NCBI RefSeq assembly: GCF_022846255.1
Contig: NZ_AP025682.1
DNA length: 64,000 nt
DNA from: Escherichia coli
GTDB taxonomy: Bacteria; Pseudomonadota; Gammaproteobacteria; Enterobacterales; Enterobacteriaceae
Strand: one strand, 5' to 3'
Part shown: positions 1-51,992 of the stretch, piece by piece
Layout: every line of letters starts with the position of its first letter
Position numbering within the stretch: the first letter of the stretch is position 1
Notes under the pieces: model-generated
Told to the model about the DNA's origin: nothing
Databases searched by the model: none
Seen by the model: the letters and a program-made list of their open reading frames with translations, nothing else
Translations under genes and position numbers: made by a program

Positions 1-918
1 CTCCACGTGCCAGTGGTTTCGGATTGCTGTGGCGAACTTCTCTGCGGTTAAATCAGCAGAACTGATATAATATCTGACCGTCATTTCTGGCTATTTCTTT
101 TGTTCTGCTATTATGGACCGAAAGGAGACTGCCACGCATAATTTCTTCAGTCCTTTCCATTCAAACGTGAAATCAATAAGTTCATCAGGGACATCGCAAA
201 CAATATGAAGACGGATTTCTTCTCTGCCGTGACTTTTTTCACTAATTGCGTAACTGTCATGCTCTGGATTATTCAATTCTTTCAGCGGAAATTTTTCCTC
301 GAAGGCTTTATTTAGCCGCCCCTGGTTTCCTTTTACAGCGAATAAATAATCACCTCCCTGTTTTTGTATCTTCTCTGCAATATCTTTCTGGCAACCCATC
401 GCATCAGTTGTGATGATTTTTCCTTTAATATCCAGCATGTTAAGAAGTTCAGGGATAGCTGTAATTTCATTGGATTTCTCATCCGTCCTGATCTGTCCGA
501 TGACCAGACTGTGCATTGTTGAGAACGCACTAATGACATGAATCGCTCCCCTGCGGCGACTCTTGTCATAAGAATGTCGGAGCGTTTTTCCATCAATTGC
601 AATAACGTCTTTATCATCTGAAGAATGGCAGTCACGCATCCAGTTAATAAAGCACTCGTGAAATTTTGCAGGACTGATACAGGATACAACTCTGGCAATG
701 GTATCGTGAACAGGAATACCATTTTCAAAATCACCATATTGCTTCAAAAAATCGAGATGTGTTTCCCCAAAATCCTCTATATCTTCCCAGCCTTCTGCAC
801 CAGAAATAACGGCACAAATAGTCAACAGTAGAATATCCGATAATTTATGTTCCACTTTCCAGGCTTGTCTGTAATCGGGGATAATAGAAATATGTTCCAT
901 CAATTTTTTAAGTACCAT
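1..918 (-). mobile_element. ISAs1-family (H-repeat-associated) transposase gene, disrupted: in-frame TAG at 91-93, homologous reading frame continues to the window edge
   Basis: 275-aa [29 protein letters not shown]... matches the N-terminal three-quarters of E. coli H-repeat/ISAs1 transposases. Reverse-complement of 1-90 continues in frame as [30 protein letters not shown] after the stop. Confidence 0.7.
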
Positions 919-1147
919 TTTGTTCTCCTTAATTATGTAAGGAGTATTTGATCATGTATAAGCAATAAAAAACAGCTTCAGGTAATGAGGAATATCTCAA
1001 TTTTTAAACATAAAATGCGAATTATTTAGTACAAAAAAGCAGCGTTACGTGATCTTTCCCTGACTGTGTAGGAAAACAGGTTTCCAAGCCCTTCCGAACC
1101 ATTCATGCCTGCAAACAAAAGCAGCTGCGGCGGCACCGCACTACCAC

Positions 1148-1468
1148 TTACTGTGACGTTATGCGCCCCGGACCACCGGCAGCAAGCGACGCCGCCGCAT
1201 CCTGAACTGCACCAGCCATATCCGAGATCCCTGCTGCTGCAGCGGCAGCCTGCGCAGCAGCTACTGCTGCTTTAACCAGACCTGACGGTTCCGGCAACGC
1301 ACCAAACAGGTCCGCCGCTGCCTGTTCTGCCATCTCCTCGGCGGCACCAGATACATCGGTTACGGCTGAACCTGTGCTCATACCGCCACTTTCGCCAGCT
1401 ATTGGTGGTGTGGTGATGACGGGTCCACCGTTTCCAGCTGGTTTGTTACCCGTAGATACAAAACTCAT
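1148..1468 (-). CDS. hypothetical small Ala/Gly-rich protein (106 aa), no recognisable domain
   Basis: ORF with an AGGA-containing putative RBS upstream of the ATG; low-complexity A/G-rich translation; GC-rich relative to AT-rich flanks; lies just downstream of a putative immunity gene. Confidence 0.3.
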
Positions 1469-9200: not shown

Positions 9201-10118
9201 TTCCGCCGGGGACTGCGCGGTCAGATCCGCCACGTTCAGCGTCAGGATCACGCCGTTGAGCGGTGCGCCGGGGCGGTGTTTACGCAGCAGTCCCAGAAAC
9301 CCCTGCCACTCCCCGGCGTTGCGCTGGGTCGCGCTGATTTCGCCACCGTCATCGTGGCGAGCATAGCGCCCGGCGGTGTCAATAAGCACTGCTTCGTTGG
9401 TAAACCACCAGTCGCAGTGCAGCGTGCCGCCGCCCGGCACGGTGAGAATATGCGCGGTTTGCTCCATCTGCTCCGCCAGCGGAAACTGTAGCCCGGTGTT
9501 AAGCAGCGCGGTGGTTTTACCATCGCCGGGGCTGCCGATAACCATAAACCACGGCAGCTCGTACAGAAAACGCTTTCCTTCCAGGACTTTTCGCCAGCCA
9601 GGAAGATCCACACGCAGTTGTTTCAGTTGCCGGATGGCGCGGTTGACAATATGGCTGACGGTACGCAGGTCGGCTTTAATTTCCCCCTCCACCGGTACGT
9701 CTTCCCCACGCGGATGCAGGAAACGGCGCAGCAGTTGTTCATCCAGACGCAGCGCCCGCCACAGCCGGTACAGGCCATACAGCGCATAAGTCAGCAGGAT
9801 CAGACCGATAAGCGTCAGACGCAGCCACAGCGGCGCAAATGGATGAACATCACCGAGGGACAGCAGGGGTGAAACAAAACCGATGACCAGGCACAGAACC
9901 GTCACGCCAATGATGCTCATCGACCAGTTAACCAGCCACAGTGCGAGGAACATCAGTAACAGAACGATGGTGACTACCCGACTTCCCACAGACGCGAGCG
10001 GATGCACGGTGTCAAACGCCACCAGCGGCCCGATAAACCAGACCAGCAGCGCCAGTACCGCCACGCCGACAACAGCCAGCGCGCGGCGGGAAAACAGCAG
10101 ACTGAGAAATTTTTGCAT
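6252..10118 (-). CDS. tssM: T6SS membrane core protein TssM (IcmF family)
   Basis: 1288 aa; N-terminal transmembrane segments, Walker A GSPGDGKTT, large periplasmic C-terminal region; typical IcmF architecture. Confidence 0.9.
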   Translation of the reverse strand: MQKFLSLLFSRRALAVVGVAVLALLVWFIGPLVAFDTVHPLASVGSRVVTIVLLLMFLALWLVNWSMSIIGVTVLCLVIGFVSPLLSLGDVHPFAPLWLRLTLIGLILLTYALYGLYRLWRALRLDEQLLRRFLHPRGEDVPVEGEIKADLRTVSHIVNRAIRQLKQLRVDLPGWRKVLEGKRFLYELPWFMVIGSPGDGKTTALLNTGLQFPLAEQMEQTAHILTVPGGGTLHCDWWFTNEAVLIDTAGRYARHDDGGEISATQRNAGEWQGFLGLLRKHRPGAPLNGVILTLNVADLTAQSPAERLAACAALRARLAELRETLGIRFPVYLVVTKMDLLPGFTEYFRGLTSHLRAQVWGFTLPYSRRRHASDPQSLHALCGRELANLTQRLDQGLDTRLQEEYDLKSRQRLYRFPREFAALGAPLLEAIEQIFLDSKFDATQLNNTLRGVFFTSAAQAQADAVADQTGIWQRFVRAIKGKADSPSHTLPDGNRSYFLHDLLTQFIFREAHLVEPNLQWAWRYRLLRTGGHLLVLALAFWLWQGMQGSQQGNSGYLNEIASRTTQLDGDVKAYTGKPAMQPVPALLNQARALSAWPGLDPDSPPLAWRYGLYSVPPVMESVASLYDRLLDQLLLPPLVKRMEYVLSDAIARQDSKAAYDALHVYLLLNLDKDHEDKYNAAEIHAWVLNDLDNRDSVAEFGGRAAVLEHIDALFDGSRVVHSPWEKDEGLIRQARAFLDGHTSTERIYTRALASMESEAPQEFSLVRAVGADAGTVFVRTDGAPLDRGVPGIFTREGYRELFDKRLSEFVAAASADDAWVMGRESAQKKTTDIVMSQLPGQELPVTREVRRLYLAEYARRWQDFLASIHSINSAGEDGSPGLAYDLQVLRTLASPDSPLMRLSKAVVEQTTLVPPLNAQARQKQMAQRAQDRLSGNAGKAVQTAKLLQDIHPEERLEKSLVDDRFAALREVVSGQTDSGQGGGVPQLNSLLTMLNEYYTQLTIADSALAASTLPGRISAADKLQLEAAKLPAPLKNILLDLTQQGTRKINAGTGEVLNAQMEAVIGDECRDAIDGRYPFTDSPQEVSADDFNRIFASGGVLDAFWTKQLAPLADTASNPWRYKPTEGNMTLQGPDLTPFQEAKQIRSVFFNGDGGKKFSWAMQVRVVDMDPAITELVIDIDGQVLRYAHGPVRPLKVNWPGPRNGSMAEITASPRIRQDTSTLLTNGPWALFHLLDAGKAQETAVRGTQQVEYSFDGRRVILEITAGRDFDPVDRGLLQRFACPERAL

Positions 10119-10445
10119 TATTGTTCAGAACTCCACATTGTAATCATCAACAATAAAAGGCCACAAGCTGAAAATGTTTTCCCGATTCAGCACAAAAAAA
10201 TAGATGGCGATCCGAAACATCACTAAACCTGAAAAATAAAATTTCGCAGCATCATTTTATTTACATCATCACGCAACAACGTTGTCATTATAAGGTTTAT
10301 GCTCAATATTTTAATTTATATACAAAATCATTCGAGTTGCATCAAGGCGGCAAGCGAGAGGATCCCGAATCATTTATTCCGGTAAGTGACTCGGGTGAAC
10401 GAGTGCAGTCAACGCAGAGGCAACCTGAAGGATAAGGTGTATACA

Positions 10446-10901
10446 TCAAAATTCTCTGGATAGAATAATATAGCCATTGAATCTTACGGAACACTCATTT
10501 TCATTAATAAGGCCGGATGCAATAAAAACATCTTTCCCTCTGTCATTGTTAATATAGGTATATTTTGCCACAATAGACTTGGCATGATTTTCATAGTAGC
10601 TATCAAAATACGATTTTTCATCTAACATTGCCTTCTTATTTCTGGCTTTGTCCTTCTCATAATCAATCTTAGCCAGAGACTCTGCATAAAACTTAGACAC
10701 AGGAGAAACATCAAGAACTTCTACCCTTGTTTTATCTCTTAAAATAGTAGAAGAATTTATATTCAAATCACTTTTCATTGCATCAAATAACGACAACTCT
10801 ATTGAGGCTCCAACCGTAGCGCAACCATCATTTTGTGCATATGAAATTGCAGGTATGCCAGCTAACAGGCAGATTATTACCTTGAACATATTAGTCCTCA
10901 A
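10446..10901 (-). CDS. putative periplasmic immunity protein (Tldi-like) for the upstream L,D-transpeptidase-like effector
   Basis: 151 aa with signal peptide MRTNMFKVIICLLAGIPAISYA; AT-rich; overlaps the effector gene end by 11 nt. Confidence 0.45.
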   Translation of the reverse strand: MRTNMFKVIICLLAGIPAISYAQNDGCATVGASIELSLFDAMKSDLNINSSTILRDKTRVEVLDVSPVSKFYAESLAKIDYEKDKARNKKAMLDEKSYFDSYYENHAKSIVAKYTYINNDRGKDVFIASGLINENECSVRFNGYIILSREF

Positions 10902-11259
10902 CCACTAATATTTTATCAGTACTGGCAGCAATAACCTTGCGATAAGGTAAATCCAGAATTATACAGCCATCAGAGGCTTCTCCTGGATGGGCTGAACTCT
11001 CTCCGTGTATCATGAAACCGTCACGCCCGCACATTTGATTTTCGGGGTAAGGCGTGAGCCTCATCGTCCATGCTCTTGTTCTGGCATGAAAAAATGCAAG
11101 TCCAATTGTATATGTACCTCTTGGCAATGGTCCCTTATCTCTTACACACTCATTAACAGAGTCATCTTTAAAACCCGGTCTGCCAGAATATCTGGCATTG
11201 AACTGATAGCTACCATTTAAATAAAATGAACGTGCATTAATTTTGTATACCCAAGGCAT
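10891..11259 (-). CDS. Tlde1-like (DUF2778, L,D-transpeptidase-fold) T6SS effector
   Basis: 122 aa; motifs KGPLPRGTYTIG and FMIHGESSAHPGEASDGCIIL match the His-x(14-17)-S-x-G-C signature described for Tlde1/YkuD-like effectors; no signal peptide. Confidence 0.55.
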   Translation of the reverse strand: MPWVYKINARSFYLNGSYQFNARYSGRPGFKDDSVNECVRDKGPLPRGTYTIGLAFFHARTRAWTMRLTPYPENQMCGRDGFMIHGESSAHPGEASDGCIILDLPYRKVIAASTDKILVVED

Positions 11260-18345: not shown

Positions 18346-18636
18346 TTAAAAATCATACGCAGAGAGTATTTTTATAATCTCTTTGTTTTCTTTGTACTTT
18401 TCCCGCAGCACAGGGAGTGATTTCTTTGCCGGAGGACACCAGGTATCAACCCCCTTTTCGATGTCTCTTTTATCCTTCTCTGGTAAAGAACTGTCCCATT
18501 CACCAGCAAGATGCTGGCACATTTCCGCATTACTCAGAAAATGCTGCACATCCTGTGGTAAAGGCGGTTCCCCCTGAACACAGAAAGCGAAAATCATTAA
18601 CAGGAATGTCAACAACATCGGATAACGAAATGCCAT
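18346..18636 (-). CDS. small secreted protein, putative immunity protein for the upstream M15-like peptidase
   Basis: 96 aa with signal peptide MAFRYPMLLTFLLMIFAFCVQG; starts 2 nt after the stop of the peptidase-like gene. Confidence 0.35.
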   Translation of the reverse strand: MAFRYPMLLTFLLMIFAFCVQGEPPLPQDVQHFLSNAEMCQHLAGEWDSSLPEKDKRDIEKGVDTWCPPAKKSLPVLREKYKENKEIIKILSAYDF

Positions 18637-18638
18637 AC

Positions 18639-19202
18639 TTAATGTCCATCAATTGACCAGTGAGGTATATCTGTATTGCCGCCAACAAATTTTCTGACGC
18701 CGTAACCCAGACCTACCGCCTGAAGCTGGGCATTCATTCCGGTTCGAGGTAGTGTATTAATTGCAACATTCTGACCATTGCTCCCCGCAATTGTTAATGT
18801 TCCGCTCCAACTGATATTCATATCTATCGCAGTACCGCGTGTATGGTTGGAGCTCAGTGCAGGCGCGACATTCAGATTATTCATACCATAGGCCGTAACC
18901 ATAGCCTGCGCCGCTTCAAGCGAGGCTTGCTCAGTCGGGTGAACCCACTCAATATCCACCCCCTCCATCGCCGGGACGTTTTTTGCCTGAACGATTTCAT
19001 GAGCAATCAACCATGACCAGTGCATGAGATATGCTCTGGCGGGAGGGCGATATGTTGCAGAAATACTGACCCTTGCGCGTGCATTACCAAGCGCTCGCAA
19101 AAAATTATCTACCGATGCACGAAAAGTCCCCTGCAAATCATTAGTGGAAGAACTTCCAGGAAAGCGACTGACCCACAGTGCGCCACTTAATTCTTTTGCC
19201 AT
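18639..19202 (-). CDS. M15/LAS-family zinc peptidase-like protein, candidate peptidoglycan peptidase effector
   Basis: 187 aa, no signal peptide; motif SSNHTRGTAIDMN fits the M15 signature S-x-H-x-x-G-x-A-x-D, with a downstream His pair (DIPHWSIDGH); located between clpV and tssB. Confidence 0.45.
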   Translation of the reverse strand: MAKELSGALWVSRFPGSSSTNDLQGTFRASVDNFLRALGNARARVSISATYRPPARAYLMHWSWLIAHEIVQAKNVPAMEGVDIEWVHPTEQASLEAAQAMVTAYGMNNLNVAPALSSNHTRGTAIDMNISWSGTLTIAGSNGQNVAINTLPRTGMNAQLQAVGLGYGVRKFVGGNTDIPHWSIDGH

Positions 19203-19214
19203 AAGGATGCTCCA

Positions 19215-21848
19215 TTAATCCGTGTCAAAAATAATCTGTTCATCCTCATCAACACGAATGCGGATTTGCGTGATGGCCGTTTTCTCTGTCATCGCCTGCA
19301 GCCAATAACGGGACAGTTGTGGGAGGATATGTTGTTCGATATAGCCGATGAGCAAACGAGCGCCGGTTTCGTGCATCGGGCAGCGCGACACAATATGCGT
19401 AATCAGTTCATCGCCATACACCAGTGAAACGCCATGCTGCTCCGCCATCCGATCCATCAATCTGCCAAGATGCAGGCGGGCAATAACACCACGCGCGGTC
19501 TCATCCAGCGGTAAATAAGGAATAACCGTCACACGCCCCAGGAAAGCCGCCGGGAAGTGTTTACGTAACTCCGGCATTAACGCCTCTTTTAACCCTGCCG
19601 AATCGGGCATCAGCGCCGGATCCTCACAGAGCTGGCTGATAAGTTCCGCCCCCGCGTTAGTCGTCAACAACAGCGTGGTATTTTTGAAATCGATGTGGAC
19701 ACCTTCGCCATCTTCCATCGCCCCCTTATCAAACACCTGGAAGAACAGCTCGTGGACGTCGTGATGGGCTTTTTCAATTTCATCCAGCAATACCACGCTC
19801 CAGGGATGGCGGCGTACCGCTTCCGTCAACACGCCGCCTTCGCCATAGCCGACGTAGCCGGGCGGCGCGCCTTTCAGAGTGGAGACTGTGTGAGACTCTT
19901 GATACTCGCTCATGTTGATGGTGATCAGATTCTGTTCACCGCCATAGATTGCTTCTGCCAGTGCCAGCGCGGTCTCAGTCTTGCCTACTCCGGACGGCCC
20001 GGCCAGCAAAAAGACACCCACTGGCTTACGCGGGTCACCTAAACCCGCCCGCGCGGTCTGGATACGCTCGCCAATCTGCGCCAACGCATCCATCTGCCCG
20101 GTAACACGCTGCGCCAAACGGGTGGGCAATTCCAGTATCTGACTGGCTTCATCTTTCACCATCCGTCCGGCGGGAATACCGGTCCAGTCGGAGACAATCT
20201 CTGCCACCACGGTTGCACTGACTTCCGGGTACACGACGGGGTTTTCACCCTGCCAGCCTCTTAATGCCGTTTCTGCCTGTTGTAGAGTGATTTCGTCGCG
20301 CTCGCCAGGCGCTGCGCCGCGTTGCTCCTGTAAACTGCGAACCAACTCCAGTTCCTGCTGCCACCGCGCTTCGGTGTCAGAAAGATCGGCATTAAGCGAT
20401 ATAATCCGCGCCGTCAGTACATCGCCCCGCTCCGAGCGGATACCCATTTTTTCCTGCTTTAATAACAACTCCTGCTCCAGTTCGGCAGCGTTGAGCTGCT
20501 GGCGCAGATACTGGACTCTCGCAGGCGGGGTATGCAGCGACAGCGCTACACGGGCCGCCGCCGTATCCAGCAGGCTGATGGCCTTATCCGGTAGTTGCCG
20601 GGCCGGAATGTAACGGTGAGAAAGCTGTACAGCGGCGCGCACGGCCTCATCAAGAATCAGGACATCATGGTGTTCTTCAAGCGTGGTGACTAATCCGCGC
20701 ACCATCTCAACAGCCGCAACCTCTTCCGGCTCAGCAACCTGCAATACCTGAAAACGCCGGGTCAGCGCCGGATCCTTTTCGATATGGCGTTTGTACTCGC
20801 TCCAGGTGGTTGCGCCGATGGTGCGCAGAGTGCCACGCGCCAGCGCCGGTTTCAGCAGGTTGGCAGCATCCCCCGTACCGGATGTACCACCAGCGCCCAC
20901 CAGGGTGTGAACTTCATCAACAAAAAGTATCACCGGCTGCGCCGAGCGCGCGGCCTCTTCCAGCAAAGCTTTCAGGCGGGATTCAAATTCACCCTTCATG
21001 GACGCCCCAGCCAGCAGCGCTCCAACATCCAGTGACAGCAACCGCACGTTACGCAGTGAAGGCGGCACTTCCCCCCCGGCAATCGCCAGCGCGAATCCTT
21101 CCACCACTGCCGTTTTCCCGACCCCCGCCTCGCCGGTCAGCAGCGGATTGTTCTGGCGACGGCGCAGCAGAATATCCGTCATAGTACGGATCTCGTGTTC
21201 GCGTCCGGTGACCGGATCGATATTGCCTTCACGGGCCAGCGCAGTCATGTCCTGGCAGTATTTCGCCAGCGCGGATTTACTTCCGGTTGATTCGCCGGCA
21301 AAGACCTGGCTAGCTTCCCCCGGTACTGCAAAATTTAAATCCGAGCCGTCATAAGGTATTTCTGTTAATTCAGGAGATGAAGCGATTAAAGACGGAAGAA
21401 TATCTAATAGTTCATCTACCGGTAGCCCTGCCAATGGCGCACAGATATTTTTTAACACCCGATACAATTCTGGCGTGGTTAACCAGGCAAGTAATAACCA
21501 TCCACTACGAATTTTTTGATCACCAAAGCGGATACTTGCCAACATCCAGGCTTTTTCAACAGAAAGATCGATATGATGGGAAAAATCGTTAATTACACTC
21601 GCTCCGGCAGGCAATATATTCAATTGCTGAATTAACGCCTTCTCAACATCAGCAGATGTTATTTGATAATGTCGAAGCACATTGTGAATGTCATTCTCTG
21701 GTTGTTGTATTAACTGATGCAACCAATGCGTCAGTTCGACATAAGGATTAGCGCGTAATTTACAGAACGTCGTCGCAGATTCCAAAGATCTAAACAAAGA
21801 TTTGGTTAGCTTTCCATACAGTGCACTGCGCGAAACAGGAGTGTCCAT
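19215..21848 (-). CDS. clpV: ClpV (TssH) AAA+ ATPase
   Basis: 877 aa; two Walker A motifs (GEAGVGKTA, GPSGVGKTE); ClpB-like without middle-domain extension. Confidence 0.9.
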   Translation of the reverse strand: MDTPVSRSALYGKLTKSLFRSLESATTFCKLRANPYVELTHWLHQLIQQPENDIHNVLRHYQITSADVEKALIQQLNILPAGASVINDFSHHIDLSVEKAWMLASIRFGDQKIRSGWLLLAWLTTPELYRVLKNICAPLAGLPVDELLDILPSLIASSPELTEIPYDGSDLNFAVPGEASQVFAGESTGSKSALAKYCQDMTALAREGNIDPVTGREHEIRTMTDILLRRRQNNPLLTGEAGVGKTAVVEGFALAIAGGEVPPSLRNVRLLSLDVGALLAGASMKGEFESRLKALLEEAARSAQPVILFVDEVHTLVGAGGTSGTGDAANLLKPALARGTLRTIGATTWSEYKRHIEKDPALTRRFQVLQVAEPEEVAAVEMVRGLVTTLEEHHDVLILDEAVRAAVQLSHRYIPARQLPDKAISLLDTAAARVALSLHTPPARVQYLRQQLNAAELEQELLLKQEKMGIRSERGDVLTARIISLNADLSDTEARWQQELELVRSLQEQRGAAPGERDEITLQQAETALRGWQGENPVVYPEVSATVVAEIVSDWTGIPAGRMVKDEASQILELPTRLAQRVTGQMDALAQIGERIQTARAGLGDPRKPVGVFLLAGPSGVGKTETALALAEAIYGGEQNLITINMSEYQESHTVSTLKGAPPGYVGYGEGGVLTEAVRRHPWSVVLLDEIEKAHHDVHELFFQVFDKGAMEDGEGVHIDFKNTTLLLTTNAGAELISQLCEDPALMPDSAGLKEALMPELRKHFPAAFLGRVTVIPYLPLDETARGVIARLHLGRLMDRMAEQHGVSLVYGDELITHIVSRCPMHETGARLLIGYIEQHILPQLSRYWLQAMTEKTAITQIRIRVDEDEQIIFDTD

Positions 21849-22180
21849 CTGTTACACCTAATGATGTAAGAACATATAAATGATACATAAACATAACTGT
21901 ACCGATTAAAACTTCTAATTAATAGAATTATCAAAAAGGCCGAATGAAACAATGATGCATATCACAGAACACAATGTAATATAGCAGGTAGTATCTTTTT
22001 CATGGTGATATTCAATAGAGCAAGCCAATTTCATACATACAATGAATATATTAAATTAAAAATCGCCACTATATATTTCCGCGAAAACTTATATTGATAA
22101 AGTAAATTGATCAGCATTGCTTATCTAAAAATTTAGAAAACTTATTCTTTTGAAATAAACATTCTACACAGTGATACACA

Positions 22181-23095
22181 ATGAAACCAAATATTACGTG
22201 GGGACTCCAAAAAATACAGGCGCACGGGATCGCCGATAACACAATTTACGCGACTGAAGGAACCCAAATTATCTTCACCGTTACCTCACCCTGGATTCCT
22301 GTTTTTGAGGTGAATGATGATGTAAAGATTGCCCTCAGTCTGACCCGCCACGAAGAAGCATGGTGGATTATCAATCAGTCTACCGAATATTGCTGTACGG
22401 TAAACGACCAGATTGTGGAACCTCATCACCGTATGCGTCTGAATGAAGGCGACCTGATAGAATGGGGGTTATCTTCATGGTGCCTTGTGCACGGCAATCC
22501 ATCATCTCCGGACCTGAGCGCAGTAAAAACGACATCGCAGACTGCCACCATGTCGGAAACAATAACCGAATATCTGGATCTGGATTGGTTCAGGCAGCAG
22601 CATCTGACATCACAAAATCCATTCGATATCATTCCTGTTCATGGAGCCTCCTCCACTGGAGAAGATGCTAAAAAAGAAAATGCCCTGACTCGACTTTATC
22701 AGGAATACCGCGAGGCGTTGTTATCTCCTGAACAAGATCTTCATCGCCATGCTGATCCTTTTCCTTTTAACGAAGAGCCCTCCTCACAGGATCTGGATTC
22801 ATTGCGTGATCTGGTCACTGAAGCCGAGACATTGCAGGATATGGTCACTGGCGGGTTAAGCATTGACGCTATTCTCGATGTCCTGGACGCCACCGGCGAA
22901 GGGGAAACCGCCTGGCCTGCCGAAAAGACACCCCCAGATATCCTGCACCTGCTATCCCCGGAATGCGCACCGGAAACAGCGCATAACACCGTTCTACCCG
23001 ACCTGACACGCAAAGAGCATCGCATCATTGGCATTGACAGCCATTATCGGATAAACCCGGCACAACACGGAGAGATATCTCATGACAAACAATAA
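22181..23095 (+). CDS. FHA-like domain protein (TagH/Fha-like T6SS accessory protein)
   Basis: 304 aa; N-terminal region loosely fits the FHA pattern (…SLTRHEEAWWI…TVNDQIV…LNEGDLIEWG); first gene of the plus-strand T6SS operon. Domain call is tentative. Confidence 0.4.
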   Translation: MKPNITWGLQKIQAHGIADNTIYATEGTQIIFTVTSPWIPVFEVNDDVKIALSLTRHEEAWWIINQSTEYCCTVNDQIVEPHHRMRLNEGDLIEWGLSSWCLVHGNPSSPDLSAVKTTSQTATMSETITEYLDLDWFRQQHLTSQNPFDIIPVHGASSTGEDAKKENALTRLYQEYREALLSPEQDLHRHADPFPFNEEPSSQDLDSLRDLVTEAETLQDMVTGGLSIDAILDVLDATGEGETAWPAEKTPPDILHLLSPECAPETAHNTVLPDLTRKEHRIIGIDSHYRINPAQHGEISHDKQ

Positions 23096-30704: not shown

Positions 30705-31463
<759 letters not shown>

Positions 31464-31534
31464 TAAAACTTTCTTGTCATCGGCTCCGTTCGCCGTTATG
31501 ATCGGTCGTCTTTTAAGCAACTATTGACACACAC

Positions 31535-32893
31535 ATGAAGGCAAAAGCGATATTACTCGCCTCTGTCCTGCTCGTGGGTTGCCAGAGCACCGGCAACGTT
31601 CAACAGCACGCACAGAGCCTTTCTGCAGCTGGTCAAGGGGAAGCAGCAAAGTTTACAAGTCAGGCACGATGGATGGACGATGGGACGTCTATCGCGCCAG
31701 ATGGTGACTTGTGGGCTTTCATTGGCGACGAGCTAAAGATGGGAATTCCGGAAAACGACCGGATTCGCGAACAGAAACAGAAATATTTACGCAATAAGAG
31801 CTATCTCCACGATGTAACTTTACGGGCAGAGCCGTATATGTACTGGATAGCCGGGCAAGTTAAAAAACGTAACATGCCTATGGAACTGGTACTACTACCC
31901 ATAGTGGAGAGCGCTTTTGATCCTCACGCAACGTCTGGCGCCAATGCCGCAGGCATCTGGCAGATCATTCCGAGCACGGGGCGCAATTATGGTTTGAAAC
32001 AGACCCGCAATTATGACGCGCGTCGCGATGTTGTTGCTTCAACAACTGCCGCGCTGAACATGATGCAGCGTCTGAACAAGATGTTTGACGGCGACTGGCT
32101 TCTGACCGTAGCGGCTTATAACAGCGGCGAAGGTCGGGTCATGAAGGCAATTAAAACGAACAAAGCGCGTGGGAAATCCACGGACTTCTGGTCGTTACCG
32201 TTGCCGCAGGAAACGAAGCAGTACGTGCCTAAAATGCTGGCATTGAGTGATATTCTCAAAAACAGCAAGCGTTATGGCGTACGTCTGCCAACGACCGATG
32301 AAAGCCGTGCTCTGGCGCGTGTGCACCTGAGCAGCCCGGTTGAAATGGCGAAGGTTGCAGATATGGCGGGGATTTCCGTCAGCAAGCTGAAGACATTCAA
32401 CGCAGGCGTAAAAGGCTCCACGCTGGGCGCGAGTGGTCCGCAGTACGTGATGGTGCCAAAGAAGCATGCAGATCAACTGCGTGAATCTCTGGCTTCAGGC
32501 GAAATTGCTGCTGTACAGTCGACGCTGGTTGCTGACAATACGCCGCTTAACAGCCGTGTTTACACCGTACGCTCTGGCGACACGCTTTCAAGTATCGCTT
32601 CACGTCTCGGCGTAAGCACCAAAGATTTGCAGCAGTGGAACAAACTGCGCGGATCTAAGCTGAAGCCAGGCCAAAGTTTGACGATTGGTGCAGACAGTAG
32701 CGCACAGCGACTGGCAAACAACAGCGATAGCATTACGTATCGTGTGCGCAAAGGCGATTCGCTTTCAAGCATTGCTAAACGCCACGGCGTGAACATCAAA
32801 GATGTAATGCGCTGGAACAGCGATACTGCGAATCTGCAACCAGGCGATAAGCTGACGTTGTTTGTGAAAAACAACAGCATGCCAGACTCCTGA
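31535..32893 (+). CDS. mltD: membrane-bound lytic murein transglycosylase D
   Basis: 452 aa; lipoprotein signal (LLVGC), SLT domain and C-terminal LysM repeats (YTVRSGDTLSSIA, YRVRKGDSLSSIA). Confidence 0.9.
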   Translation: MKAKAILLASVLLVGCQSTGNVQQHAQSLSAAGQGEAAKFTSQARWMDDGTSIAPDGDLWAFIGDELKMGIPENDRIREQKQKYLRNKSYLHDVTLRAEPYMYWIAGQVKKRNMPMELVLLPIVESAFDPHATSGANAAGIWQIIPSTGRNYGLKQTRNYDARRDVVASTTAALNMMQRLNKMFDGDWLLTVAAYNSGEGRVMKAIKTNKARGKSTDFWSLPLPQETKQYVPKMLALSDILKNSKRYGVRLPTTDESRALARVHLSSPVEMAKVADMAGISVSKLKTFNAGVKGSTLGASGPQYVMVPKKHADQLRESLASGEIAAVQSTLVADNTPLNSRVYTVRSGDTLSSIASRLGVSTKDLQQWNKLRGSKLKPGQSLTIGADSSAQRLANNSDSITYRVRKGDSLSSIAKRHGVNIKDVMRWNSDTANLQPGDKLTLFVKNNSMPDS

Positions 32894-51544: not shown

Positions 51545-51745
51545 GTGGAAAAATATTGTGAGTTAATACGCAAGCGGTACGCGGAAATCGCCAGCGGAGA
51601 CTTAGGATACGTTCCGGACGCGCTGGGCTGCGTTTTGAAAGTGCTGAATGAAATGGCTGCCGACGACGCCCTTTCTGAGGCTGTCAGGGAAAAAGCAGCA
51701 TACGCTGCGGCAAACTTACTGGTGAGCGATTATGTCAATGAATGA
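51545..51745 (+). CDS. yaeP: UPF0253 protein YaeP
   Basis: Translation from a GTG start gives [28 protein letters not shown]...; preceded by AGGAGG. Confidence 0.85.
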
Positions 51746-51992
51746 TACGTATCAACCAATCAATTGTGATGATTACGATAATCTTGAGCTCGCCTGCCAG
51801 CATCATTTAATGCTGGCACTTGAGCTGAAAGATGGCGAAAAATTGCAGGCGAAGGCCAGCGATTTAGTCTCCCGCAAAAATGTGGAGTATCTGGTCGTCG
51901 AGGCCGCTGGTACAACCCGCGAGCTGCGTCTGGATAAAATTACCAGCTTTAGCCACCCGGAAATCGGTACGGTGGTGGTGAGCGAGTCCTGA
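51738..51992 (+). CDS. rof: Rho-binding antiterminator Rof (YaeO)
   Basis: [26 protein letters not shown]... recognised as Rof; overlaps the yaeP 3' end. Confidence 0.88.

What the first reader, a model, noticed from the sequence alone, without database searches (positions are those of the whole stretch)
21849..22180. AT-rich divergent control region between the clpV-side and fha-side T6SS operons
About 330 bp of strongly AT-rich DNA separates the divergently transcribed minus-strand operon (clpV onward) and plus-strand operon (fha-like gene to tssA). It is a likely site of promoters for both operons and of nucleoid-protein silencing. A GATC site lies at about 22110. No unambiguous sigma-70 hexamers or Fur box could be fixed by eye.
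Basis: inference. Interest (0 to 1): 0.35.

Follow-up and report, generated by a model that had tools for sequence, protein, structure and literature searches.

The report
AT-rich T6SS divergent promoter region
This 332-bp, very AT-rich spacer between two back-to-back type VI secretion operons in E. coli is the counterpart of a Salmonella control region known to be silenced by the nucleoid protein H-NS, so it is an ordinary regulatory region that happens to contain one sharply conserved, so far undescribed promoter-like element.

Summary
Window 21849-22180 is exactly the 332-bp gap between tssH/clpV (minus strand) and tagK (plus strand). At 27.1% GC it is the most AT-rich stretch of the 64-kb window. 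The locus is a Salmonella SPI-6-type T6SS inserted at tRNA-Asp, found in about 2% of complete E. coli genomes.

In Salmonella, H-NS binds the same tssH|tagK gap in vitro and in vivo, and occupancy falls inside macrophages. A fragment spanning that gap drives clpV-lacZ.

Motif scans for sigma-70, Fur, H-NS, sigma-54, CRP and FNR sites do not exceed chance in this AT-rich DNA. The GATC at 22109 is expected by chance and was lost twice within Escherichia, so a Fur/Dam switch like that of EAEC sci1 is not supported.

The new detail is an invariant block, AAACAATGAT-N4-ATCA (21947-21964), found in 13 of 13 orthologous gaps from four genera. It lies about 100 bp upstream of clpV. It coincides with the only conserved promoter-like site, on the clpV strand (predicted start near 21945). 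Its geometry would also allow a shared bidirectional -10. The tagK promoter remains unlocated.

Verdict: a new member of a known kind, of modest interest.

The parts
21849..22180 (.). tssH(clpV)|tagK intergenic region, 332 bp, 27.1% GC: the reported feature
   Evidence: No feature is annotated here in the 119 E. coli genomes that carry it.
21300..22300 (.). Wider low-GC zone: the first ~500 nt of clpV (39-42% GC), the gap, and the first ~150 nt of tagK (43% GC). Predicted H-NS platform.
   Evidence: Its size is comparable to the 810-bp H-NS region at the Salmonella orthologue. H-NS binding here is inferred, not shown.
21942..21969 (.). Conserved block. Its core, AAACAATGAT-N4-ATCA, lies at 21947-21964 and is invariant in 13 of 13 orthologous gaps.
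   Evidence: Permutation test: an invariant run of 10 against a mean of 2.7, and 14 of 18 invariant against 6.6, with 0 of 20000 permutations reaching either. None of the 6 other Escherichia alleles has a substitution in 21947-21969. The block is unique in the window.
21952..21980 (-). Predicted sigma-70 promoter for clpV: -35 ATTACA (21980-21975), 17-bp spacer, -10 CATCAT (21957-21952), predicted start near 21945, leader about 97 nt
   Evidence: This is the only promoter-like position conserved in 13 of 13 loci. Outside Escherichia it reads TTGnnn-16-TATCAT in 8 of 9 loci (8-12 bits) and GTTCCA-17-TATCAT in C. amalonaticus (6.4 bits). In Escherichia it scores 5.1 bits. The invariant AA at 21978-21979 matches the TT of a -35 at 16-bp spacing. 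This is a prediction; no start site has been mapped.
21928..21956 (+). Possible divergent partner promoter: -35 TTATCA (21928-21933), -10 AATGAT (21951-21956), predicted start near 21963. It shares the A-N3-T core with the clpV -10.
   Evidence: the predicted starts are 18 bp apart in 13 of 13 loci. The geometry is that of published bidirectional promoters. The -35 is weak (whole-promoter score 0.8-6.3 bits). Speculative.
21988..21995 (.). Small conserved island (TTA.TAT), at -43 to -50 from the predicted clpV start
   Evidence: invariant positions 21989, 21990, 21993, 21994.
21852..21869 (-). Small conserved hairpin in the clpV leader, UUACAUC-AUUA-GGUGUAA. Its 3' arm contains the Shine-Dalgarno (plus-strand CACCT, 21855-21859).
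   Evidence: 97.6% of cells are paired, against 32-54% when the partner is slid. Two stacked pairs change on both sides in the Salmonella-like sequences. Covariation is reached by 3 of 500 shuffles. The hairpin is weak (-5.5 kcal/mol) and the change is probably one evolutionary event.
21914..21932 (.). Best Fur-box-like sequence (13/19), a quasi-palindrome TCTAATTAATAGAATTATC shared by the Escherichia lineages only
   Evidence: (I6). It does not exceed chance (P = 0.37) and is not at a position conserved in other genera.
22109..22112 (.).
   Evidence: It is destroyed by 22110A>T in E. coli E69 and by 22109G>A in Escherichia sp. E1V33.
19215..21848 (-). tssH/clpV, first gene of the minus-strand unit
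22181..23095 (+). tagK, with an FHA-like N-terminus; first gene of tagK-tagJ-tssE-tssF-tssG-tssA

Best explanation
The interval is the shared 5' control region of the two divergent core units of an SPI-6-type T6SS, tssH/clpV... on one side and tagK-tagJ-tssEFG-tssA on the other. Its extreme AT content, together with the AT-rich starts of both genes, makes it a nucleation platform for H-NS. H-NS would keep the horizontally acquired cluster silent until the silencing is relieved; in Salmonella that happens inside macrophages or when c-di-GMP rises in response to bile or L-arginine.

Within the gap, the clpV-proximal 150 bp carries the constrained elements:
- a sigma-70 promoter for clpV, with its -10 and discriminator forming the invariant block at 21947-21964 (predicted start near 21945);
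- a short upstream island;
- a ~97-nt leader ending in a weak hairpin that includes the Shine-Dalgarno.

The tagK-proximal 180 bp is free to vary in sequence but not in AT content, so it acts mainly as H-NS substrate and/or leader.

What is shown here: anatomy, composition, orthology and conservation. What is shown only in the Salmonella orthologue: H-NS binding, its relief, and promoter activity toward clpV. What is inferred: H-NS binding in this E. coli, the exact promoter and start site, and the role of the hairpin.
For: Anatomy and composition.

Orthology to SPI-6: the gene order is the same, the cluster is inserted at tRNA-Asp, and it carries Tae4/Tai4 and Tlde1 genes.

Conserved gap: a 330-423-bp, 23-30% GC gap is present in 14 of 14 related loci.

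Salmonella experiments:
- H-NS_Region_036 is 810 bp, with log2FC -3.2 in macrophages, and the authors call it the promoter region of the tagKJ-tssEFGA and tssH units.
- H-NS EMSA and ITC (Kd 0.29-0.46 uM) used a probe that I mapped to L008 3127-3311, equivalent to window ~21843-22023.
- The ChIP-qPCR amplicon runs from the clpV ATG to the block.
- PclpV::lacZ contains the whole gap plus 129 nt of tagK, and it is induced by bile, L-arginine and c-di-GMP.

Footprinting: the invariant block gave 0 of 20000 permutations. The only promoter-like site conserved in 13 of 13 loci has its -10 in that block. Within Escherichia, the clpV-proximal half changes far less than the tagK-proximal half: 12 against 46 differences between the window and E69.
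Against: - There are no expression, start-site or binding data for this E. coli or for any Escherichia carrier.
- In the window itself the predicted clpV promoter is weak (ATTACA-17-CATCAT, 5.1 bits). No site in the gap beats shuffled DNA.
- Conservation of TGAT in the spacer and TGTTT in the discriminator is more than a plain promoter needs, so an overlapping operator is likely and remains unidentified.
- The H-NS 10-mer motif is not enriched (best 8/10, P = 0.66). The H-NS inference therefore rests on composition and orthology.
- The two primary Salmonella papers with footprints and the Fur site (Brunet 2015, Wang 2019) could not be read.
Confidence: 0.7

Rival explanations
1. The invariant block is mainly an operator for a sequence-specific regulator, either an unknown factor or a CRP/FNR-family protein recognising TGAT-N4-ATCA. 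On this reading it is not the core promoter itself. The regulator would repress clpV transcription or counter H-NS silencing from that site.
For: The palindromic arms TGAT/ATCA are invariant although they fall in what would be a promoter spacer. The 5 bases after the -10 are invariant too. On the minus strand, E. coli reads TGTGA-N6-TCATT, which is 8/10 of the CRP core.
Against: The CRP and FNR core matches (8/10 each) are no better than shuffles (P = 0.21 and 0.54). The CRP-specific G is replaced in Salmonella and L013, which read CCTGA and CATGA. The block does not recur upstream of other T6SS genes in the window. It matches no consensus I could recall, including Fur, LexA, PhoP, RcsB, Cra and NsrR; that is from my own knowledge and is not a database test.
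Confidence: 0.25
2. A Fur/Dam epigenetic switch like that of the EAEC sci1 T6SS promoter. Iron-loaded Fur would bind a box overlapping the -10 and a GATC, so that Fur binding and Dam methylation exclude each other.
For: Fur is reported to bind the Salmonella clpV promoter directly (Wang 2019, as cited). The gap has one GATC (22109) and a 13/19 Fur-like site (21914-21932), the same nominal match as the proven sci1 fur1 box. In all 9 non-Escherichia loci the conserved block itself contains a GATC.
Against: - The 13/19 match is expected by chance (P = 0.37).
- It lies 177 bp from the GATC and does not overlap the predicted -10.
- No site of 12/19 or better overlaps either the GATC at 22109 or a position conserved across genera.
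- The GATC at 22109 was lost twice in Escherichia.
- One GATC in 332 bp is the chance expectation, whereas sci1 has three.
- All Escherichia alleles lack the GATC in the block.

Fur repression on its own, without Dam, remains plausible (about 0.3).
Confidence: 0.08
3. One shared, symmetric -10 element inside the block drives both operons as a bidirectional promoter. The plus-strand AATGAT (21951-21956) and the minus-strand CATCAT (21957-21952) use the same A:T pairs at 21952 and 21956. The predicted starts are near 21963 (plus strand) and 21945 (minus strand).
For: The predicted starts are 18 bp apart in 13 of 13 loci. That is the commonest spacing at published shared -10 bidirectional promoters. 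No conserved promoter-like element exists in the tagK-proximal 200 bp. In Salmonella, tagK and tssH rise together when H-NS leaves.
Against: The plus-strand -35 is poor (whole-promoter score 0.8-6.3 bits). tagK would need an unconserved leader of 216-305 nt. Any A-N3-T pentamer allows this geometry, so the fit is weak evidence. Promoter turnover in AT-rich DNA could equally explain why there is no conserved tagK-proximal promoter.
Confidence: 0.25
4. A passive AT-rich spacer without its own promoters. Both gene sets would be transcribed from elsewhere, and the low GC would be a leftover of horizontal transfer.
For: No statistically distinguishable promoter motif exists in the window's gap.
Against: The two genes diverge, so each needs a promoter upstream of its start, and that upstream DNA is this gap. 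In Salmonella, a fragment spanning the gap has promoter activity toward clpV. The block is under strong purifying selection.
Confidence: 0.03

Closest known systems
Salmonella enterica SPI-6 T6SS tssH(clpV/sciG)|tagK(sciF) intergenic region (PclpV; H-NS_Region_036)
   Same: It occupies the orthologous position in a syntenic cluster at tRNA-Asp. The architecture is the same: divergent genes separated by a 367-368-bp gap at 26-27% GC. It carries the same invariant block about 100 bp from the clpV ATG and the same leader hairpin.
   Different: Outside the conserved islands the sequence has diverged, and TagK is only 56% identical. Salmonella has a better promoter match (TTGCTA-16-TATCAT, 9.8 bits, against ATTACA-17-CATCAT, 5.1 bits) and a GATC inside the block that Escherichia lacks. 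In Escherichia the AT-rich shoulder extends about 500 nt into clpV, whereas in Salmonella it hardly does (54-56% GC). No experiments exist for the E. coli version.
EAEC sci1 T6SS promoter (Fur/Dam epigenetic switch; Brunet 2011, PMC3145626)
   Same: It is an E. coli T6SS promoter region, with weak Fur-like boxes of 11-13/19 and GATC present.
   Different: It belongs to a different T6SS family and is a unidirectional promoter. The sci1 switch has three GATCs, one inside the Fur box at the -10. Here there is a single, non-conserved GATC that overlaps neither a Fur-like site nor the predicted -10.
EHEC T6SS-2 tssB|hcp3 divergent ('bidirectional') promoter repressed by H-NS (PMC13141884)
   Same: A divergent intergenic promoter region of an E. 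coli T6SS island, bound by H-NS, silent in vitro, and with several start sites reported.
   Different: A different T6SS family, different flanking genes and no sequence relationship. In EHEC, additional downstream elements limit expression even when the promoter is replaced.
Shared -10 bidirectional promoters (Warman/Grainger; PMC12825309)
   Same: Overlapping -10-like hexamers on opposite strands, offset by 1 nt, which predicts divergent starts 18 bp apart.
   Different: Here the starts are only predicted, and the plus-strand -35 is weak.

Membership tests
SPI-6-type T6SS tssH|tagK H-NS-silenced control region | Lies between divergent tssH and tagK in a syntenic SPI-6-type cluster at tRNA-Asp | tested here: met
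   SPI-6 lies adjacent to aspV.
SPI-6-type T6SS tssH|tagK H-NS-silenced control region | Strongly AT-rich relative to the flanking genes | tested here: met
   27.1% GC against about 59% in the clpV body. It is the lowest-GC 332-bp stretch in the 64 kb. All 14 related loci show the same.
SPI-6-type T6SS tssH|tagK H-NS-silenced control region | Sequence homology to the Salmonella fragments used in the experiments | tested here: met
   The EMSA, ChIP and lacZ primers were mapped on L008 and projected onto window ~21843-22023 and the whole gap. The shared block is invariant.
SPI-6-type T6SS tssH|tagK H-NS-silenced control region | H-NS occupancy, and derepression in an hns mutant or at high c-di-GMP | not testable with these tools
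   Shown only for Salmonella.
Fur/Dam epigenetic switch (EAEC sci1 type) | Fur box overlapping the -10 element | tested here: not met
   The best Fur-like site (13/19, 21914-21932) lies 20 bp or more from the predicted -10 (21952-57) and is at chance level.
Fur/Dam epigenetic switch (EAEC sci1 type) | GATC inside the Fur box, with several GATCs in the promoter | tested here: not met
   There is a single GATC at 22109. No Fur-like site of 12/19 or better overlaps it, and it was lost in two Escherichia lineages. sci1 has three.
Fur/Dam epigenetic switch (EAEC sci1 type) | Iron/Fur-dependent and Dam-dependent expression | not testable with these tools
   Needs fur and dam mutants. Fur binding is reported for Salmonella PclpV only.
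Shared -10 bidirectional promoter | -10-like hexamers on opposite strands overlapping so that A-11 and T-7 of one pair with T-7 and A-11 of the other | tested here: met
   AATGAT 21951-56 on the plus strand and CATCAT 21957-52 on the minus strand, in 13 of 13 loci.
Shared -10 bidirectional promoter | Observed divergent start sites about 18 bp apart | not testable with these tools
   Only predicted.
CRP or FNR binding site | Match to TGTGA-N6-TCACA or TTGAT-N4-ATCAA above background, with conserved specificity bases | tested here: not met
   8/10 for each, with P = 0.21 and 0.54. The CRP G is lost in Salmonella and L013, and no half-site has the FNR TTGAT.
Sigma-54-dependent T6SS promoter | TGGCAC-N5-TTGCW element | tested here: not met
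   No match with 3 or fewer mismatches inside the gap.
Known RNA family (Rfam) | Covariance-model hit | tested here: not met
   Only a sub-threshold snoRNA hit, lying inside clpV.

The most novel reading that the evidence does not exclude
A single 5-bp A-N3-T core inside an 18-bp block kept invariant across Escherichia, Salmonella, Citrobacter and Enterobacter would be the shared -10 of a bidirectional promoter. That promoter would fire both halves of the T6SS core (clpV side and baseplate side) from starts 18 bp apart, under an H-NS blanket and an unidentified operator protein that reads the TGAT-N4-ATCA arms. Outside Escherichia, the block also carries a Dam site in the spacer.
Probability: 0.2. 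Interest if true: 0.5.

Novelty: new member of a known kind. Interest (0 to 1): 0.3.

Why it matters
Practically, it tells anyone who wants to switch on this rare E. coli T6SS where to look. The T6SS is SPI-6-type, carries Tae4/Tlde1 effectors, and occurs in about 2% of complete genomes. The control DNA is the clpV-proximal 150 bp, and two base pairs (21952, 21956) and one 28-bp block are the obvious targets for mutagenesis. Conceptually, it adds a cross-genus footprint to a region that has so far been treated as generic AT-rich H-NS substrate. If the shared -10 reading holds, it would be a clear natural case of a bidirectional promoter coordinating the two halves of a secretion machine. Otherwise this is an expected regulatory region of a known type.

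Tried and rejected
- Simple sigma-70 and terminator scan: nothing inside the gap and no terminators.
- My own sigma-70 PWM on the window alone: best 9.4 bits against a shuffle mean best of 10.25, and 28 hits of 5 bits or more against 35 +/- 6 in shuffles. The single sequence is therefore uninformative. The top hit (TTGATA-18-TTTAAT) lacks the A at -11 and was dismissed.
- Fur 19-mer, the H-NS TCGATAAATT motif and sigma-54: all at chance level.
- Fur-like sites across the orthologues: no conserved position.
- CRP and FNR cores: at chance level.
- Rfam: no family.
- Repeats and small ORFs in the gap: only short chance-level repeats and unconserved ORFs of 48 aa or fewer.
- Whole-leader RNA fold: z = -0.12, so no global structure.
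- Recurrence of the block elsewhere in the 64 kb: none beyond chance.
- Literature search for the literal block sequence and for sciG/sciF promoter work: nothing.
- Brunet 2015 and Wang 2019 are not in the held library, so the published H-NS footprints and the Fur site could not be compared.
- The genome-collection scan with TagK patterns returned only 6 loci and no Salmonella. Salmonella, Citrobacter and metagenomic loci were fetched by exact-protein look-up instead.
- A distant relative (L012, TagK 30% identical) keeps the AT-rich gap but not the block.

Full report
OBSERVATION

The window is E. coli chromosome. It is 100% identical to strain 2014C-3338, and the locus occurs in 119-120 of 5426 complete genomes, always in single copy. 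The ORF list places tssH/clpV at 19215-21848 on the minus strand and a 304-aa ORF at 22181-23095 on the plus strand.

Pfam and RefSeq identify ClpV, then two small unknown genes, TssB, TssC and further genes running leftwards. TagK, TagJ, TssE, TssF, TssG and an ImpA-family TssA run rightwards and end at a tRNA-Asp next to dnaQ-rnhA.

The gap is 27.1% GC against 51.6% for the window. It contains the lowest-GC 332-bp stretch of the whole 64 kb, and only 0.05% of such stretches are as low. The GATC is at 22109-22112, and composition alone predicts about 0.8 GATC in a gap this size.

WHAT THE LOCUS IS

Three things mark this as a Salmonella SPI-6 / Enterobacter cloacae T6SS-1 type cluster, not one of the usual E. 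coli T6SS-1 or T6SS-2 types:
- the gene order;
- the insertion next to tRNA-Asp;
- the Tae4/Tai4 amidase pair and a Tlde1-domain gene.

Its N-terminal 113 residues, scanned alone, just reach the Pfam FHA threshold (21.8 bits against a 20.7 cutoff), so the label is defensible at domain level.

MOTIFS IN THE SINGLE SEQUENCE ARE UNINFORMATIVE

- The simple sigma-70 scan finds nothing in the gap and no terminators.
- With a position-weight matrix built from textbook hexamer frequencies, the best site scores 9.4 bits. Dinucleotide shuffles of the gap average 10.25 for their best site.
- The best Fur-box match is 13/19 (P = 0.37). The best match to the H-NS high-affinity 10-mer is 8/10 (P = 0.66). 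There is no sigma-54 element.
- Rfam finds no RNA family.
- Repeats and small ORFs are at chance level.

COMPARATIVE EVIDENCE

I collected 13 orthologous tssH|tagK gaps:
- the window itself;
- three other Escherichia lineages;
- two Enterobacter loci;
- two Citrobacter loci;
- two Salmonella loci;
- three metagenomic loci.

I also collected one distant relative, L012. All have a 330-423-bp gap at 23-30% GC. The flanking clpV body is 55-62% GC in the 13 orthologues and about 46% in the low-GC L012. TagK is only 56-58% identical between genera, so unconstrained DNA should be scrambled, and most of the gap is. Four islands survive:
1. 21849-21880, next to the clpV start.
2. 21942-21969, whose core AAACAATGAT-N4-ATCA (21947-21964) is invariant in 13 of 13 loci and sits 98-102 bp from the clpV ATG (131 bp in C. 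koseri, which has a 30-nt insertion).
3. A short TTA.TAT island at 21988-21995.
4. The few bases before the tagK ATG.

A column-permutation test gives a longest invariant run of 10 against a mean of 2.7, and 14 of 18 invariant against 6.6. Neither value was reached in 20000 permutations. Six further Escherichia alleles have no substitution anywhere in 21947-21969. The clpV-proximal half of the gap changes far less than the tagK-proximal half: 12 against 46 differences between the window and E69. The block is unique in the 64 kb, and its sequence is not printed in any held paper. The distant locus L012 (TagK 30% identical) keeps the AT-rich gap but not the block.

WHAT THE BLOCK PROBABLY IS

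Scoring all 13 gaps with the sigma-70 matrix and projecting the hits onto the alignment shows one standout position. It is on the clpV strand, with its -10 inside the block, and it is present in 13 of 13 loci:
- TTGnnn-16-TATCAT in 8 of the 9 loci outside Escherichia (8-12 bits), and GTTCCA-17-TATCAT in C. amalonaticus (6.4 bits);
- ATTACA(21980-21975)-17-CATCAT(21957-21952) in Escherichia (5.1 bits).

The invariant AA at 21978-21979 corresponds to the TT of the -35 at 16-bp spacing. The predicted start is near 21945, which gives a ~97-nt leader.

A plain promoter does not explain why TGAT in the spacer and TGTTT after the -10 are also invariant, so an overlapping operator is likely. I could not name the protein. 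The arms fit the generic CRP/FNR pattern at 8/10, which is no better than chance, and the CRP-specific G is lost in Salmonella. Fur-like matches are weak and fall at different places in different genera.

A further possibility follows from geometry. The plus-strand AATGAT (21951-21956) and the minus-strand CATCAT overlap with a 1-nt offset. This is the arrangement of published shared -10 bidirectional promoters and predicts divergent starts 18 bp apart in all 13 loci. That would also explain why no conserved promoter exists nearer to tagK. Against it, the plus-strand -35 is poor, and tagK would need a long, unconserved leader. I rate this at about 0.2-0.25.

EXPERIMENTAL SUPPORT FROM THE ORTHOLOGUE

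A ChIP-exo study of S. Typhimurium lists H-NS_Region_036 (311285-312094, 810 bp), assigned to tagK...tssA / tssH. Its H-NS signal falls from 0.998 outside macrophages to 0.117 inside them (log2FC -3.2). [quoted passage not shown]

Li et al. 2023 show several things for 'PclpV': H-NS EMSA and ITC (Kd 0.29-0.46 uM), ChIP-qPCR, derepression in delta-hns, and induction by bile salts, L-arginine and c-di-GMP. I mapped their primers onto the Salmonella locus:
- The EMSA probe is the clpV-proximal ~185 bp, equivalent to window ~21843-22023.
- The ChIP amplicon runs from the clpV ATG to the conserved block; the forward primer starts inside the block.
- The lacZ fusion contains the whole gap plus 129 nt of tagK.

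Promoter activity toward clpV and H-NS binding are therefore demonstrated for the homologous DNA. Fur is reported to bind the Salmonella clpV promoter (Wang 2019, cited), but that paper and Brunet 2015 were not available.

THE GATC AND FUR/DAM IDEA

The EAEC sci1 switch has three GATCs, one of them inside a Fur box that overlaps the -10. Here there is one GATC, as chance predicts. It is 177 bp from the best Fur-like site and far from the predicted -10. Two different substitutions destroyed it in two Escherichia lineages.

All nine non-Escherichia loci have a GATC inside the conserved block, whereas every Escherichia allele has TATC there. If Dam plays a role anywhere in this family, it is at the block and not in E. 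coli.

Fur repression on its own cannot be excluded, because proven Fur boxes can be as poor as 11-13/19.

OTHER FEATURE IN THE GAP

RNAalifold on the predicted clpV leader finds one small hairpin, UUACAUC-AUUA-GGUGUAA (21869-21852 on the minus strand). Its 3' arm contains the Shine-Dalgarno.
- 97.6% of cells pair, against 32-54% when the partner is slid.
- Two stacked pairs change on both sides in the Salmonella-like sequences.
- The covariation score is reached by 3 of 500 shuffles.

The hairpin is weak (-5.5 kcal/mol), it is not the minimum-energy fold in every species, and the compensatory change is probably a single event. It would explain why about 30 nt upstream of the ATG is conserved. 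I treat it as a lead.

VERDICT

The region is a new member of a known kind: the H-NS-silenced divergent control region of an SPI-6-type T6SS, here in E. coli. The undescribed details are the invariant promoter/operator block and the possible shared -10. The tagK promoter, the identity of any protein binding the block, and all in vivo behaviour in E. coli remain open. Interest is modest, at 0.3.

Noticed in passing
window 21350-21848 (5' ~500 nt of clpV): The first ~500 nt of clpV are 39-42% GC, against ~59% for the rest of the gene. This shoulder is present in all four Escherichia lineages but is weak or absent in Salmonella, Citrobacter and Enterobacter (44-56%). The AT-rich patch is therefore about 1 kb in Escherichia.
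   Followed up: partly
window 21852-21869 (minus strand): A small conserved hairpin in the clpV leader includes the Shine-Dalgarno, with two stacked compensatory pairs in the Salmonella-like sequences. It may be a translational control element.
   Followed up: partly
alignment A2 / igr13, columns matching window 21957-21964; loci L005-L008, L010, L011, L013-L015: All nine non-Escherichia loci have a GATC (Dam site) inside the invariant block (ACAGATCA). Every Escherichia allele has CATATCA there instead. This is a lineage-specific loss of a conserved methylation site.
   Followed up: partly
window 22181-22520 (TagK residues 1-113): The TagK N-terminus reaches the Pfam FHA threshold only when scanned alone (21.8 bits). 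The full-length protein gave no Pfam hit at E <= 0.001.
   Followed up: partly
window 18346-18636 and 18639-19202 (minus strand): Two small genes of unknown function lie between clpV and tssB. The 96-aa product has a weak thioredoxin-like CxxC hit (StoA_CxxC, 28 bits, far below its cutoff), and a 96-aa gene is also called at the same position in Salmonella. The 187-aa product has no family.
   Followed up: no
whole T6SS cluster, window ~1600-28400; L001: This is an SPI-6 / E. cloacae-type T6SS (Tae4/Tai4, Tlde1, TagF-domain gene) at tRNA-Asp next to dnaQ. It is present in only ~2.2% of complete E. coli genomes. Divergent versions (TagK 75-76% identical) occur in E. coli E69 and Escherichia sp. 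E1V33.
   Followed up: partly
L005 (Enterobacter sp. kpr-6) and L014 (metagenome): In these loci clpV is truncated (539 aa) or its place is taken by an Rhs/YD-repeat ORF. The AT-rich gap, the clpV leader sequence and the invariant block are nevertheless retained intact.
   Followed up: no
window 561-1173, 1361-2673, 10061-11043, 30961-31603: These are other low-GC patches (32-34% GC) in the window. Several lie inside the T6SS cluster and may be further H-NS-bound internal promoter regions, as in Salmonella, where eight H-NS regions were mapped in SPI-6.
   Followed up: no
protein P0001: One database TagK relative is 351 aa (83% identical), about 47 residues longer than the rest. It may reflect an upstream start call reaching into the gap.
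   Followed up: no
window 51737-51754: This is the only other near-match to the block in the window (AATGAATGATACGTATCA, 2 mismatches), far outside the T6SS cluster. It is probably chance.
   Followed up: no
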